A stretch of DNA of 64,000 nt from an uncultured Gammaproteobacteria bacterium (GTDB lineage: Bacteria; Patescibacteriota; Microgenomatia; CAYFQP01): the NCBI GenBank assembly GCA_964345375.1, contig CAYFQP010000003.1, positions 8,875-72,874 on the forward strand, in the 5' to 3' direction. The first letter of the stretch is position 1, and each line of letters begins with the position of its first letter. Shown piece after piece: positions 30,266 to 36,002 of this stretch. Made by a program: the position numbers and the translations under genes. The notes below the pieces were generated by a model. It worked only from the letters and a program-made list of their open reading frames with translations. It did no database searches and was not told the origin of the DNA.

Positions 30266-32158
30266 TTAGTCTTTTTTTTCCTCTTTTTCAACCCTCTTTC
30301 CGACTAGGTTTTCAAACTCTTCCTGTTCTAAGGTCTCTTTCTCCATTAAAGCCTCAGCTACTTTATCAAGTTTTTTTCTTGATTTTTTTAAGATCTCAGT
30401 TGCTTTTCGATAGGTCTTCTCAATAATCTGGTTAACTTCTTTATCTACTTTAGCCGCCATTTCCGGAGAAAGTTTGCTTGGCTCCATCCACATCGCTCGA
30501 CCCATGTCTGAGTATTCAACCTGAGGCCCTAGGTTAATTGGTCCTAAAGCACTCATCCCAAAATCAATCACCATTTTTCGGGCCACTTTAGTTGCCTGAG
30601 AAATATCGTTGGCTGCACCGGTAGTCATTTCCTTAAAAATCAAGTCTTCGGCTGCCCGACCACCTAGTATCGCTGTTATCTGCTCTAGGAGTTCGGATTT
30701 GGTCTTATGAACCCTCTCTCTTAAGGGCGGAATTAAGGTGTGGCCTAAAGAGACTCCCCGGGCAACAATCGAAATTCGAGAAACTGGATCCATGTGGGGT
30801 AAAAAGTGAGTCACTAAAGCATGGCCTGACTCATGATAGGCAGTCATCTTTCGATCCTCTTCGGTCTGGAGTTTTCTCTTGGCTGGCCCAAGCTTAACCT
30901 TAAGGGCCGCTTCATTAATATCAGTCATTTCAATTGATTTTTTATTATTTCTTGCTGCGCCAATGGCAGCTTCATTAAGCATATTTTCTAAATCAGCTCC
31001 AGAAAAACCAACTGTCCTTTTGGCTACTTTTGACCAAGAAACGTCTGGACCAAACGGCTTTCCTCGAGCATGAATTTTTAGAATTGCTTCTCTTTCTTGA
31101 ATATCTGGCATGTCTAAAACTATTCTTCGATCAAATCTTCCTGGTCTTAAGAGGGCCGGGTCAAGGAGATCACCGCGATTTGTAGCTGAAATCACTATCA
31201 CGTTATCATTCGGAGTAAATCCATCCATCTCTACCAAAATCTGATTTAAGGTCTGTTCTCTTTCATCATGACCGCCCATTGCCCCCATCCCTCTCATCCG
31301 ACCAATTGCATCAATTTCATCAATAAAAATAATGGAGGGGGCTGCCTTTTTGGCATTATTGAACAAGTCTCTCACCCGGGCGGCCCCTACTCCAACTAGC
31401 ATCTCCATAAACTCTGAGCCAGCCATTGAGAAAAAAGGAACGGCTGCTTCACCAGCAACTGCTTTAGCCAAGAGGGTCTTACCACAACCAGACGGTCCAA
31501 CTAAGAGAACACCTTTAGGCGTTCGGGCTCCTAGAGCTCGATATTTAGCCGGATGTTTCAAGAAATCAACCACTTCCTCAAGCTCTTTTTTCGCCTCAAC
31601 AATACCGGCAACGTCTTTAAAAGTAATATCCTGCTTGCCTTTAGCAAAAAGTTTGGCCCGAGAACGGCCAAAAGAGAAAATCGAGTCTTGGGCTCCTCTC
31701 GCCTGGCGAATAATGAAGAAAAAGAAAACAGCCATCAAAACCAAAGGTAAAAATGTTCCTAAAATGTCCACCCAGAGGCGGGAAAGTGATTGGTCTTTAA
31801 TGGTCACTTTAACCCTAGTCGGGTCTATCTCCGCGTTCTCAAAAACCTCGGTCATTGATTGACCTGGTTCTTTCCGAGAAACAGCTATTTTATCCTCTTC
31901 TTTATAATTTAAGGTTAAACGGTCGCCCCCAACAACAATTTCATCAACCTTATCTTCTTTAACATCAATTAGAGCCTGAGACAAAGAGATTTCTTCTGTC
32001 TCAGGAGGAAGACCCCCGATTAAAGAGAAGAGAAAAGAAAAACCGATTAAAGAAATAAGAAGCCAGATAATAATATTTTTCGGACTAAAGTTTAGCTTAA
32101 ATTCAAATTTGCGCATTTTACGCTTAGGAGGACTTTTCCTGAGATTAATTCTGGCCAT
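30266..32158 (-). CDS. ftsH: ATP-dependent zinc metalloprotease FtsH
   Basis: GPSGCGKT Walker A, AAA SRH, HESGHAL zinc site; extended -10 TGGTATAAT 12 nt upstream. Confidence 0.92.
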
Positions 32159-32189
32159 TTTTCAACCTAAATTATACCAGAAAGAGGTA

Positions 32190-32270
32190 GATTTTGGAAG
32201 ACAATTAAATCAGCCCCATTGCTTTTTTTGCTTCTCGAAGTGTTTTCTTAGCAATCTTAGAGTAATATTC
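32190..32270 (-). repeat. diverged (~85% identity) duplicate of the trpS 3' end plus 3' flank (gene remnant)
   Basis: Encodes EYYSKIAKKTLREAKKAMGLI* vs trpS C-terminus YCSKIAKETLREAKKAMGLI*; matches 33278-33360. Confidence 0.7.
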
Positions 32271-32721
32271 AGCCCAAAATTTCTAGAGTCGCATCTAAAA
32301 ATTTCTTCGCTCCCTCGACTGCTTGTTTAGCTCCTTTCGCTGAATAGATACTTTCGTAATTAGCCGCTTCTCTTAAGCCCATCGCTTCGTCGAAATAATC
32401 GAGCATCCCAGAATCAAGTAATTTTTCTTTGACAAACAACTCTTTAATCGCTACCCCCAGACAATAATGGCCTCTTTCGCGATAGCCCCGTGAGTAAAGA
32501 AGAGCCCTAGCTGAATGGAAAAGAGAATAATAACCGGCGATGGTTGCATATTTAAAGTTTTTACTTCTCAAGAAATTGTTAGCGTTTTTTAAATCCCCTT
32601 TAGCAGCTTTAAGTTCAACCCTCATTTTATTCCTGGCCTTGGGAAACTTGATAATTTTTCTATTTTTCAAGCAATTTTCAAAATCTTTACTCATGTTGCT
32701 CCTCCCAAAGCACTTTACCAT
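32269..32721 (-). CDS. HEPN domain protein (toxin-like component of HEPN-MNT pair)
   Basis: R-x4-H HEPN motif (RERGHY), helical 150-aa protein overlapping MNT gene. Confidence 0.7.
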   Translation of the reverse strand: MVKCFGRSNMSKDFENCLKNRKIIKFPKARNKMRVELKAAKGDLKNANNFLRSKNFKYATIAGYYSLFHSARALLYSRGYRERGHYCLGVAIKELFVKEKLLDSGMLDYFDEAMGLREAANYESIYSAKGAKQAVEGAKKFLDATLEILG

Positions 32722-33232
32722 TGTTTATCTCTTCGTAAAAGACTGGATCTTTCTTCTTAAGTTCCATTAACTCTAGAAAGTTTTTAATCACTGGTTGAAT
32801 TTTTTGACCTATTTTGCTTTCTTTAATCATCTGCTGGACTTGTCTTTTCTCATTAGTGAGAATAAAGAGATCGAAGTCACTCTCGGCTGAATCTTTTCCC
32901 TGAGCGGCACTACCAAAAAGAATAACCTTCTGACTAACTTTCTGAAGTTTAGTAAGGAGAGGTCTTAACAATTCAATGGTGCGGACAACCTTCATTTGAG
33001 AAACCACGGGATCGTTTTGATCTAAAAAATAAACACTCAGGTTCCCCACCTTCACTTTCTCTATCTCCCTGTCAGCCACCTTTTTTTCTAGTATCTGATG
33101 ACAGGTAGAGATACTCGCACCTGAAGTTTGAGCAATTTGAGAAAGATACATCTTTTCACCCCCCACATTGTCTAAAAGAACATTCATTATCTTTTTTTCT
33201 GACCGCATGTTTCTTTTCATAGTTACATCCAC
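32687..33232 (-). CDS. minimal nucleotidyltransferase (MNT) with N-terminal wHTH (antitoxin-like partner of HEPN)
   Basis: LFGSAAQGKDSAESDFDLFILT (GS-x9-DxD), N-terminal HTH-like extension. Confidence 0.75.
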   Translation of the reverse strand: MDVTMKRNMRSEKKIMNVLLDNVGGEKMYLSQIAQTSGASISTCHQILEKKVADREIEKVKVGNLSVYFLDQNDPVVSQMKVVRTIELLRPLLTKLQKVSQKVILFGSAAQGKDSAESDFDLFILTNEKRQVQQMIKESKIGQKIQPVIKNFLELMELKKKDPVFYEEINNGKVLWEEQHE

Positions 33233-33235
33233 TCT

Positions 33236-33276
33236 AAAAGTATTTTCATTATAACGGAAATACTTTTGTGAGTCAA
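33236..33276 (-). promoter_or_regulatory. HEPN-MNT promoter TTGACT-17-TATAAT overlapped by a 10-bp inverted repeat (putative autoregulatory operator)
   Basis: Minus strand CCCCTTGACTcacAAAAGTATTTccgtTATAATgAAAATACTTTT. Confidence 0.55.
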
Positions 33277-33295
33277 GGGGGTGGTTTTGGAAGGA

Positions 33296-34279
33296 TTAAA
33301 TCAGCCCCATCGCTTTTTTGGCTTCTCGAAGAGTTTCTTTAGCGATCTTTGAACAGTACTTTCTCCCCTCCTCTAAAATTCTATCGACTTCTTGAGGGTG
33401 CTCTTCATAGTATTTTCCTCTCTTCTGAATTGGCTCTAATTCTTTATAAATCGCCTGGGCTAATTTCTCTTTGAGTTCAGAATACTTTATCCCTTTACCT
33501 AGATATTGCTTTTCGTAATCTTCCCGTCTTTCTTTGCTAATAAAAAGATCGACTAAAAGAAGCAAATTAGCCACCCCGCCTTCTTTGGGAATACTCTTTC
33601 CATGGCCAACATCAGTCGGCACCTTAGCTAGTTTTTCTTTGATGGTTTTCAAATCATCAGTTAAAAGAATATAGCTTCCTTTAACTGTTTTACTCATTTT
33701 GCCTTTTCCAGTTAAAGAAGGAATATTCTCTCCTTTAGTAGCAAATCTTTTAGTTTCAGGAAAAACAGGTTTAAACATCCGATTAAATCTTCGAGCGATT
33801 TCTCTAGTTACCTCAAGATGGGGCTCTTGGTCTATACCTACTGGCACTAATTCGGCTTTATAGATAAGAATGTCAGCCGCCATTAAGACTGGATAATATA
33901 AAAGGCCTAAATTAATGTATTTAGGAAATTGAGTTTTTCTATCTTTGTAAGTAGGTAATTGTTCTAACCGAGAAACCGGATAAATGGTACTGAAAAGATA
34001 GGCAAGTTCTAAATGTTCAGGGACTTGAGACTGGATCATTAAATGACATTTTTTGGGGTCTAAACCAGCGGCTAAATAATCCAAGACTACCTCCCGAATA
34101 TCTTGTTGAAGAGTCTTGGGTTCATAAGGAGTGGTAATCCCATGAAGATCGACCACGCCATAAATACAATCTAAATCCTTTCTTTCCTGAAGAGCAATAT
34201 AGCCTTTAACTCCACCTAAATAATTGCCGAGATGAAGTCGGCCTGTTGGTCTTGAACCTGAATAAACTCGTTTTTTCAT
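33296..34279 (-). CDS. trpS: tryptophan--tRNA ligase
   Basis: HLGNY (HIGH) and KMSKT class I motifs; ATG 4 nt after tRNA-Trp 3' end. Confidence 0.92.
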   Translation of the reverse strand: MKKRVYSGSRPTGRLHLGNYLGGVKGYIALQERKDLDCIYGVVDLHGITTPYEPKTLQQDIREVVLDYLAAGLDPKKCHLMIQSQVPEHLELAYLFSTIYPVSRLEQLPTYKDRKTQFPKYINLGLLYYPVLMAADILIYKAELVPVGIDQEPHLEVTREIARRFNRMFKPVFPETKRFATKGENIPSLTGKGKMSKTVKGSYILLTDDLKTIKEKLAKVPTDVGHGKSIPKEGGVANLLLLVDLFISKERREDYEKQYLGKGIKYSELKEKLAQAIYKELEPIQKRGKYYEEHPQEVDRILEEGRKYCSKIAKETLREAKKAMGLI

Positions 34280-35093: not shown

Positions 35094-36002
35094 TTGACAA
35101 CTATCCCCTTCAATGATATTATAGACCCCATCATGGCAGGCGAATTAACCTCTTTTTCTCTTGCTCGAGACAAATTCATTAACCACCTTAAGAATGAAAA
35201 TCGGTCAATCTCCACCATTTTAGCATACGGCAAAGATGTCGAACAGCTGGCCGAATTTCTTAACCAAAAGAAAATCACCCAAGTCACCTCAGTTCAACCA
35301 GAACACATTGAAACTTTTAAAAAAGAGCTTAATAAGAAAGGCTATACGGCCAAGTCCGTCTCCCGAAAACTTAATTCCATCAAAACCTTCTATCGCTTTC
35401 TTAAAAGTGAAGGAGTGGTTGAAAACGACCCGGCCGCCTCAGTCAGCCATCCTAAGTATGAGGTTAAACCTCCTCGAATTCTTTCTAAAATGGAATACCG
35501 GGCTCTTCGCGACGCCTGCCGAGACGATCTCCGCATCGCCACCATTGTTGAGTTAATGCTTCAGACAGGCATCAGAATCGGCGAGGTTTCTCGCCTAGAG
35601 TTAGAGGATATTAAGAACGATGAGCTAGTAATCAGGGCCTATCAATCTCAACCAAACCGAACTCTTCCCTTAAATAAAGCCGCCAAAAGTTCCCTTGACC
35701 GCTATCTTCAAGAGAGACCAAAAACAAGAACTAAATCAGTCTTTGTGACAAAAACTGGTCGGCCTTTACTTGTCCGTAATATTCGAACAGCAATTGACCG
35801 CTATTTTCGAATTGCCGGGATTGAAGATGCTAAAGTCAATGATCTCCGTAATACCTGGATTGCTCATCATCTCAAAGCCGGGACCTCGGTTGTTATCCTC
35901 TCCAAATTAGCTGGCCACAAACGACTTTCGACGACCGAAAAATACCTTCAATTCGCTAAAGAAAAGCCTGAAGGAAAGAAAATCAAACTCGAAGAACTCT
36001 GA
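35094..36002 (+). CDS. tyrosine-type site-specific recombinase (XerC/XerD-like integrase)
   Basis: N-terminal SAM-like core-binding domain, catalytic region with R...HxxR...Y (AHHLKAGTS...LAGHKRLSTTEKY). Confidence 0.75.
   Translation: MTTIPFNDIIDPIMAGELTSFSLARDKFINHLKNENRSISTILAYGKDVEQLAEFLNQKKITQVTSVQPEHIETFKKELNKKGYTAKSVSRKLNSIKTFYRFLKSEGVVENDPAASVSHPKYEVKPPRILSKMEYRALRDACRDDLRIATIVELMLQTGIRIGEVSRLELEDIKNDELVIRAYQSQPNRTLPLNKAAKSSLDRYLQERPKTRTKSVFVTKTGRPLLVRNIRTAIDRYFRIAGIEDAKVNDLRNTWIAHHLKAGTSVVILSKLAGHKRLSTTEKYLQFAKEKPEGKKIKLEEL

What the first reader, a model, noticed from the sequence alone, without database searches (positions are those of the whole stretch)
32190..33300. HEPN-MNT toxin-antitoxin cassette inserted at the 3' end of trpS, flanked by an ~85-bp duplicated trpS tail, with its own promoter and operator
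Sequence 32190-32270 is a diverged copy (about 85% identity) of the last ~66 nt of trpS plus ~15 nt of 3' flank (33278-33360), and still encodes EYYSKIAKKTLREAKKAMGLI*. Between the two copies lie only the HEPN (32269-32721) and MNT (32687-33232) genes. The ftsH promoter abuts the remnant copy, so trpS and ftsH were adjacent in the ancestral arrangement and a ~1-kb TA module was inserted or exchanged by recombination within the trpS tail. The cassette has a textbook TTGACT-17-TATAAT promoter overlapped by a 10-bp inverted repeat, AAAAGTATTT-n12-AAATACTTTT (33236-33267). That repeat is a plausible operator for the wHTH extension of the MNT protein.
Basis: seen in the sequence. Interest (0 to 1): 0.6.

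Follow-up and report, generated by a model that had tools for sequence, protein, structure and literature searches.

The report
Toxin-antitoxin pair between trpS and ftsH
A self-regulated two-gene toxin-antitoxin/defence module sits between two essential genes of a tiny-genome (Patescibacteria) bacterium and left a fossil copy of the end of trpS when it entered; it is a well-documented but fairly ordinary example of a known kind of module and insertion scar.

Summary
A 70-nt direct repeat (85.7%, E 1.5e-16) duplicates the last ~21 codons of trpS plus ~25 nt of 3' flank. Only a wHTH-MNT nucleotidyltransferase gene and a HEPN gene lie between the copies. They are preceded by a TTGACT-17-TATAAT promoter whose -10 box lies inside a palindrome.

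Relatives change the picture in three ways:
- The trpS-ftsH interval is a variable cargo slot. It is empty (25-26 nt) in two relatives. Others carry a GNAT gene, a tRNA-binding-domain gene, an AbiE pair or unknown genes.
- The MNT-HEPN pair is old and probably mostly vertically inherited. It lies upstream of ftsH in lineages sharing 60-85% TrpS identity, and its divergence tracks that of trpS.
- The displaced tail is a decaying fossil. It is intact in the window and L133, almost deleted in sister lineage L030, frameshifted in L043 and badly decayed in L046. Two further cargo insertions left their own displaced tails, with different breakpoints, which argues against a site-specific integrase.

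The module matches the candidate defence system PADLOC PDC-M05 and is a relative of MntA/HepT type VII toxin-antitoxins. The operator palindrome is conserved across 19 loci. It is a new member of a known kind, of modest interest.

The parts
33296..34279 (-). trpS (tryptophanyl-tRNA synthetase, 327 aa), complete and functional-looking
   Evidence: ORF. Pfam tRNA-synt_1b, E 1.8e-61. 62-85% identical orthologues in Patescibacteria MAGs.
33275..33352 (-). Repeat copy 1: the last ~19-21 codons of the functional trpS, its stop codon (33296-33298) and ~20 nt of 3' flank, running up to the -35 box of the cassette promoter
33248..33276 (-). Cassette promoter: TTGACT (33276-33271), 17 nt, TATAAT (33253-33248)
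   Evidence: 11 of 12 consensus matches. The same promoter is conserved in 19 related loci.
33233..33270 (-). Palindromic operator centred on the -10 box. Arms are CACAAAAGTATTTCC and GAAAATACTTTTAGA, separated by GTTATAAT.
   Evidence: Inverted repeat. Unique in the window, 0.02 expected by chance. Conserved in cassettes down to 57-59% protein identity. Analogous palindromes lie over the -10 box in homologues of 30-40% identity.
32687..33220 (-). wHTH-MNT gene (177 aa from the ATG at 33220; the longest ORF starts at a GTG at 33232). Residues 1-65 form a winged helix-turn-helix. Residues ~95-175 form a minimal nucleotidyltransferase with the GS...DxD motif. Predicted antitoxin and autorepressor.
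   Evidence: Pfam Polbeta/NTP_transf_2. PADLOC PDC-M05A, E 2e-14. PDB MntA 5yep, E 5.5e-5. AF2 model with pLDDT 90. Foldseek hits to MNT antitoxins and wHTH regulators. Invariant G103, S104, D115 and D117.
32269..32694 (-). HEPN gene (141 aa from the ATG at 32694; the longest ORF starts at 32721). Its start overlaps the MNT stop by 8 nt (ATGAGTAA). Predicted RNase toxin or effector.
   Evidence: Pfam HEPN PF05168, E 1.3e-11. PADLOC PDC-M05B, E 2.7e-5. Invariant R72-E73-x-x-H76, R108 and Y113 in 30 homologues.
32182..32270 (-). Repeat copy 2: the displaced trpS tail, a pseudogene fragment. It holds 21 codons (EYYSKIAKKTLREAKKAMGLI), a stop at 32205-32207 and ~23 nt of original 3' flank. It begins inside the HEPN stop codon.
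   Evidence: nhmmer with a trpS-tail profile gives E 9.6e-12. No RNA structure signal, z = +0.96. No Rfam match.
32171..32179 (-). ftsH promoter: extended -10 element TGGTATAAT, 12 nt upstream of the ftsH ATG
   Evidence: Read from the sequence. Equivalent TGnTAnnnT elements follow the trpS stop directly in the empty-site relatives L005 (TGGTAAGAT) and L007 (TGGTAGAAT), and lie ahead of ftsH or GNAT in others.
30266..32158 (-). ftsH (630 aa), the essential downstream neighbour
   Evidence: Pfam AAA + Peptidase_M41 + FtsH_ext. Synteny with trpS in all relatives.

Best explanation
**What it is.** The feature is a two-gene toxin-antitoxin/defence module of the PADLOC PDC-M05 type, a relative of MntA/HepT type VII toxin-antitoxins.

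**How it most likely works (inferred from family knowledge and sequence; nothing here was tested experimentally).**
- The first protein is a fusion of a winged-helix DNA-binding domain and a minimal nucleotidyltransferase (MNT).
- Its winged helix probably binds the 38-bp palindrome that brackets the -10 box of the module's own strong promoter, and so represses the operon.
- Its MNT domain, by analogy with MntA, probably neutralises the HEPN protein by nucleotidylating it. The invariant Tyr113 is a candidate site.
- The HEPN protein carries an invariant R-E-x-x-H motif. It is the predicted RNase effector, released when neutralisation fails under stress or phage infection.
- The two ORFs overlap by 8 nt, which suggests translational coupling.

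**How it got there (inferred from comparative data).**
- trpS and ftsH are two essential, conserved genes. In empty-site relatives they are only 25-26 nt apart, and the ftsH promoter abuts or overlaps the trpS stop codon.
- An insertion here therefore survives only if it regenerates both the trpS 3' end and the ftsH promoter region.
- The module entered this slot in an ancestor shared with several lineages. The event left a complete trpS tail next to the cargo and a displaced tail (originally at least 32 codons) in front of the ftsH promoter.
- The most likely route is recombination anchored by homology in trpS, with an illegitimate join at the other end (homology-facilitated illegitimate recombination, or import from a relative).
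- Since then the module has been inherited mostly vertically, and the displaced tail has been decaying.

The same slot has repeatedly taken up or exchanged other cargo.
For: **Module identity**
- Pfam HEPN and NTase.
- PADLOC PDC-M05A E 2e-14 and PDC-M05B E 2.7e-5.
- MntA structures by sequence and by fold.
- wHTH in a high-confidence model.
- Catalytic and other invariant residues.
- PDC-M05 is described in the literature as an ArsR-like HTH + NTase with a HEPN partner. One representative protected E. coli against at least one phage.

**Autoregulation**
- The palindrome is centred on the -10 box, is unique in the window and is conserved in 19 loci.
- Different palindromes lie over the -10 box in distant homologues.

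**Slot and ancestry**
- trpS-ftsH synteny holds in all relatives. The interval is empty in L005 and L007.
- Other relatives carry GNAT, tRNA_bind, AbiEii or unknown cargo.
- MNT-HEPN lies immediately upstream of ftsH in L030-35, L036, L043, L045 and L046.
- TA identity tracks TrpS identity: 82/84.5/73.5 in L030, 75/77/74 in L043, 61/62/66 in L046 (TrpS/MNT/HEPN %).
- The module shows no GC anomaly.

**Fossil tails**
- The same junction, TGAA(A/T)ATT.., is seen in the window, L030 and L133.
- The remnant is deleted in L030, frameshifted in L043 and decayed in L046.
- The two remnants (window and L133) are less alike (44/60) than either is to functional tails (49-51/60). This is expected for independently decaying copies.

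**Recombination**
- The window's TrpS is mosaic. Its N-terminal half groups with L001 and its C-terminal part with L030.
- In L043 the functional tail differs more from both displaced tails than they do from each other.
- Breakpoints differ between events: -16, -21, -28 and at least -32 codons.
Against: - No biochemical or genetic test was possible.
- The HEPN belongs to the HEPN-T/PF05168 (UPF0332) family, not the DUF86/HepT family in which AMPylation was shown. Its invariant R..H spacing is one residue shorter than the canonical Rx4-6H.
- The insertion mechanism is not demonstrated. The synonymous bias between the two tail copies (6 synonymous vs 3 non-synonymous nt) does not discriminate between models.
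- All four displaced tails are short (16-32 codons). Random illegitimate joints would not predict this without later trimming.
- The FtsH tree places module-bearing lineages paraphyletically among lineages without it. Vertical inheritance therefore needs several losses, or else there was lateral exchange.
- The trees are quick NJ trees on few sequences.
Confidence: 0.65

Rival explanations
1. The cassette is, or is the remnant of, a site-specific integrative element that targets the 3' end of trpS, as e14 and phage 21 target icd. In this reading attP carries a substitute trpS tail, and integration leaves the native tail as a displaced fragment. The integrase is either lost or supplied in trans, for example by the Xer-like tyrosine recombinase at 35094-36002.
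For: - The geometry is exactly that of icd/e14/icdC: a functional gene end next to the insert and a displaced C-terminal fragment at the far end.
- Three different cargoes (MNT-HEPN, a 180-aa gene, a 252-aa gene) each left a displaced trpS tail.
- A tyrosine recombinase gene is conserved about 2 kb upstream.
Against: - There is no recombinase in the 1.09-kb unit, and no terminal inverted repeats.
- The left breakpoints of the displaced tails differ between events (-16, -21, -28, at least -32 codons), and no common core is visible.
- The same cassette family at its other conserved locus (Carb_kinase/LigT ... Fic ... DNA ligase) has no trpS tail.
- No relatives were found in 2.9 million viral contigs.
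- The Xer-like gene is a syntenic core gene in relatives with and without cargo.
Confidence: 0.08
2. The repeat reflects a circular or tandem intermediate moved purely by homologous recombination. In this reading a cassette circle, excised by recombination between its two tail repeats in one strain, re-enters another strain by a single Campbell-type crossover in the trpS tail. Module and repeat therefore spread together, and the 'empty' sites are precise excisions.
For: - Direct repeats of about 70-90 nt flank exactly promoter-to-stop-codon of the module.
- The empty sites in L005 and L007 carry no scar.
- The distribution of the module on the FtsH and TrpS trees is patchy.
- trpS is mosaic.
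Against: - TA divergence tracks host-gene divergence rather than being lower.
- The remnants are unequal in length and in state of decay. In L030 the remnant is deleted while the module stays.
- Homology of 70-90 nt at about 86% identity is a poor substrate.
- No circular or extrachromosomal copies were seen in any collection searched.
Confidence: 0.15
3. The downstream tail copy is retained because it is functional rather than a fossil. It could be an upstream part of the ftsH promoter, a regulatory RNA, or an insulator between the module and ftsH.
For: - A displaced tail always lies directly upstream of the next promoter: ftsH in the window, L043 and L046, and the MNT promoter in L040 and L043.
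- The remnant ORF is still uninterrupted in the window and in L133.
- In empty-site relatives the ftsH -35 region overlaps the trpS stop codon.
Against: - The sister lineage L030-35/L053 has lost essentially all of the coding part and keeps only the -10 region. It was recovered from several samples.
- L043 has a frameshift, and L046 has stops and indels.
- There is no stable RNA structure (z = +0.96) and no Rfam hit.
Confidence: 0.07

Closest known systems
PADLOC candidate defence system PDC-M05 (M05A: ArsR-like HTH + KNTase-like nucleotidyltransferase; M05B: HEPN protein)
   Same: - Same two-gene architecture and order.
- Both proteins hit the PDC-M05 profiles: A at E 2e-14 over residues 12-176, B at E 2.7e-5.
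- The literature describes the HTH+NTase/HEPN composition. One representative protected E. coli from at least one phage.
   Different: - The host is a Patescibacteria genome, whereas the family is reported as archaea-enriched.
- The HEPN match is weak.
- Anti-phage activity of this member is untested.
MntA-HepT (HEPN-MNT) type VII toxin-antitoxin systems (Shewanella oneidensis SO_3165/3166, Aphanizomenon flos-aquae; PDB 5yep, 6m6u, 7ae9, 7bxo)
   Same: - The MNT gene lies 5' of the HEPN gene.
- The MNT domain is similar by sequence (E 5.5e-5) and by fold.
- The GS...DxD motif is invariant.
- A conserved Arg/His pair and a conserved C-terminal Tyr are present in the HEPN. Anantharaman et al. 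2013 (PMC3710099) proposed such a tyrosine as a nucleotidylation site.
   Different: - The HEPN here is HEPN-T/PF05168 (UPF0332, like AF0298/2hsb), not DUF86/HepT.
- The R-to-H spacing is Rx3H.
- The MNT carries an N-terminal wHTH that the solved MntA proteins lack.
- AMPylation is not shown.
AbiE (AbiEi wHTH antitoxin + AbiEii nucleotidyltransferase toxin), a type IV toxin-antitoxin / abortive infection system
   Same: - It has a wHTH-bearing first gene, and an operon autoregulated through inverted repeats in its promoter (my own knowledge of AbiEi).
- It pairs a nucleotidyltransferase-fold protein with that first gene.
- An AbiEii pair occupies the very same trpS-ftsH slot in relatives L011 and L028.
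   Different: - In AbiE the NTase is the toxin and there is no HEPN.
- Here the wHTH is fused to the NTase, and HEPN is the predicted effector.
e14 / phage 21 integration into the 3' end of icd, leaving the icdC pseudogene in E. coli K-12
   Same: The insert is bordered on one side by a complete gene whose 3' end adjoins the insert, and on the other side by a displaced C-terminal fragment of the same gene.
   Different: - e14 is a 15-kb prophage with its own integrase and a fixed att core.
- Here the insert is 1.09 kb with no recombinase.
- The breakpoints differ between events, and the insertion is ancient and decaying.
Horizontal-gene-transfer hotspots flanked by conserved core genes, and homology-facilitated illegitimate recombination
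   Same: - A small interval between two highly conserved essential genes holds different accessory genes in different lineages.
- One flank (trpS) shows mosaic ancestry.
- HFIR integrates DNA through homology at one end and an illegitimate join at the other (PMC3240628).
   Different: - No direct evidence that this organism is naturally transformable.
- No donor was identified.
- HFIR does not by itself predict the uniformly short displaced tails.

Membership tests
PADLOC PDC-M05 (HTH-NTase + HEPN candidate defence system) | Subunit A: HTH plus nucleotidyltransferase protein matching an M05A profile | tested here: met
   PDLC04368, E 2e-14, residues 12-176 on profile positions 15-187 of 201. 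The wHTH+MNT model is confident.
PADLOC PDC-M05 (HTH-NTase + HEPN candidate defence system) | Subunit B: HEPN protein matching an M05B profile, encoded next to A | tested here: met
   PDLC04374, E 2.7e-5, residues 14-143. This is a weak match. The genes are adjacent and overlap by 8 nt.
PADLOC PDC-M05 (HTH-NTase + HEPN candidate defence system) | Protection against phage | not testable with these tools
   Only literature on another member is available.
MntA-HepT type VII toxin-antitoxin | MNT gene upstream of HEPN gene in one operon | tested here: met
   Gene order and the 8-nt overlap ATGAGTAA. The same order holds in all homologous loci.
MntA-HepT type VII toxin-antitoxin | MNT with the catalytic GSx(n)DxD nucleotidyltransferase motif | tested here: met
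   G103, S104, D115 and D117 are invariant in 24 homologues. The protein aligns to MntA 5yep.
MntA-HepT type VII toxin-antitoxin | HEPN toxin of the HepT/DUF86 family | tested here: not met
   Pfam gives PF05168 only. The PDB sequence search finds UPF0332/AF0298-like HEPN proteins and no HepT.
MntA-HepT type VII toxin-antitoxin | Rx4-6H RNase motif in HEPN | tested here: inconclusive
   R72, E73 and H76 are invariant, which gives Rx3H. The window sequence SRGYRERGH also has an Arg at x6, but that Arg is not among the invariant columns.
MntA-HepT type VII toxin-antitoxin | Neutralisation of HEPN by MNT-catalysed (oligo)AMPylation of a tyrosine | not testable with these tools
   Y113 is invariant and is a candidate site. 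There is no biochemical test.
Site-specific integrative element at a gene 3' end (e14/icd type) | Element-encoded integrase or recombinase | tested here: not met
   Only two ORFs lie between the repeats, and neither is a recombinase.
Site-specific integrative element at a gene 3' end (e14/icd type) | attL/attR sharing a fixed core, so the same breakpoint in independent events | tested here: not met
   Displaced tails start at -16, -21, -28 and at least -32 codons in different events.
Site-specific integrative element at a gene 3' end (e14/icd type) | Complete target gene next to the insert, with a displaced 3' fragment at the far end | tested here: met
Transposon / insertion sequence | Transposase, terminal inverted repeats and a short target-site duplication | tested here: not met
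   No transposase. No terminal inverted repeats at the unit ends. The duplication is about 70-90 nt.

The most novel reading that the evidence does not exclude
The 3' end of trpS in this Patescibacteria clade could be a dedicated cassette-capture platform rather than a passive hotspot.
- In this reading, cargo genes are added serially by a trans-acting recombinase, for example the conserved neighbouring Xer-like tyrosine recombinase.
- Each event would regenerate the trpS tail, giving arrays such as trpS - 180-aa gene - tail - MNT-HEPN - tail - ftsH in L043. That would be an integron-like system in reduced genomes.
- A related possibility is that the persistent placement of MNT-HEPN directly upstream of ftsH, without a terminator, reflects functional coupling between the module and FtsH expression.
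Probability: 0.06. Interest if true: 0.7.

Novelty: new member of a known kind. Interest (0 to 1): 0.3.

Why it matters
- It is a clean, datable example of how accessory defence or toxin-antitoxin genes enter and persist between two essential genes in extremely reduced Patescibacteria genomes.
- The series of displaced trpS tails records successive insertions and their decay.
- The conserved -10-centred palindromes give a ready-made, testable operator for the uncharacterised wHTH-MNT/HEPN-T (PDC-M05) family.
- It does not reveal a new mechanism.

Tried and rejected
1. **Second trpS paralogue as the source of the repeat.** None in the window.
2. **Known RNA family or structured RNA in the remnant or ftsH leader.** No Rfam hit. 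Folding is no better than shuffles.
3. **Phage carriage.** No relatives in viral contigs.
4. **The trpS tail as part of the cassette itself.** Cassettes at the other conserved locus and in distant loci have no tail.
5. **Concerted evolution (gene conversion) between tail and remnant.** The remnant is as close to the L030 tail (49/60) as to its own tail (51/60). There is no clear own-genome excess, so this was not pursued.
6. **Synonymous/non-synonymous test for a foreign-allele origin of one copy.** 6 vs 3 nt. This is significant only against the unrealistic all-neutral model (p 0.007), not against a mixed model (p 0.53).
7. **Function of co-resident cargo.** The 180-aa, 252-aa, 373-aa and 129-aa genes have no Pfam families and no mutual similarity.
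8. **Failed or unproductive look-ups.**
   - The look-up of P0002 contigs failed.
   - A first operator pattern was mis-spaced and matched nothing. It was replaced by a regex.
   - The metagenome scan added only one close relative, of the L030 lineage.
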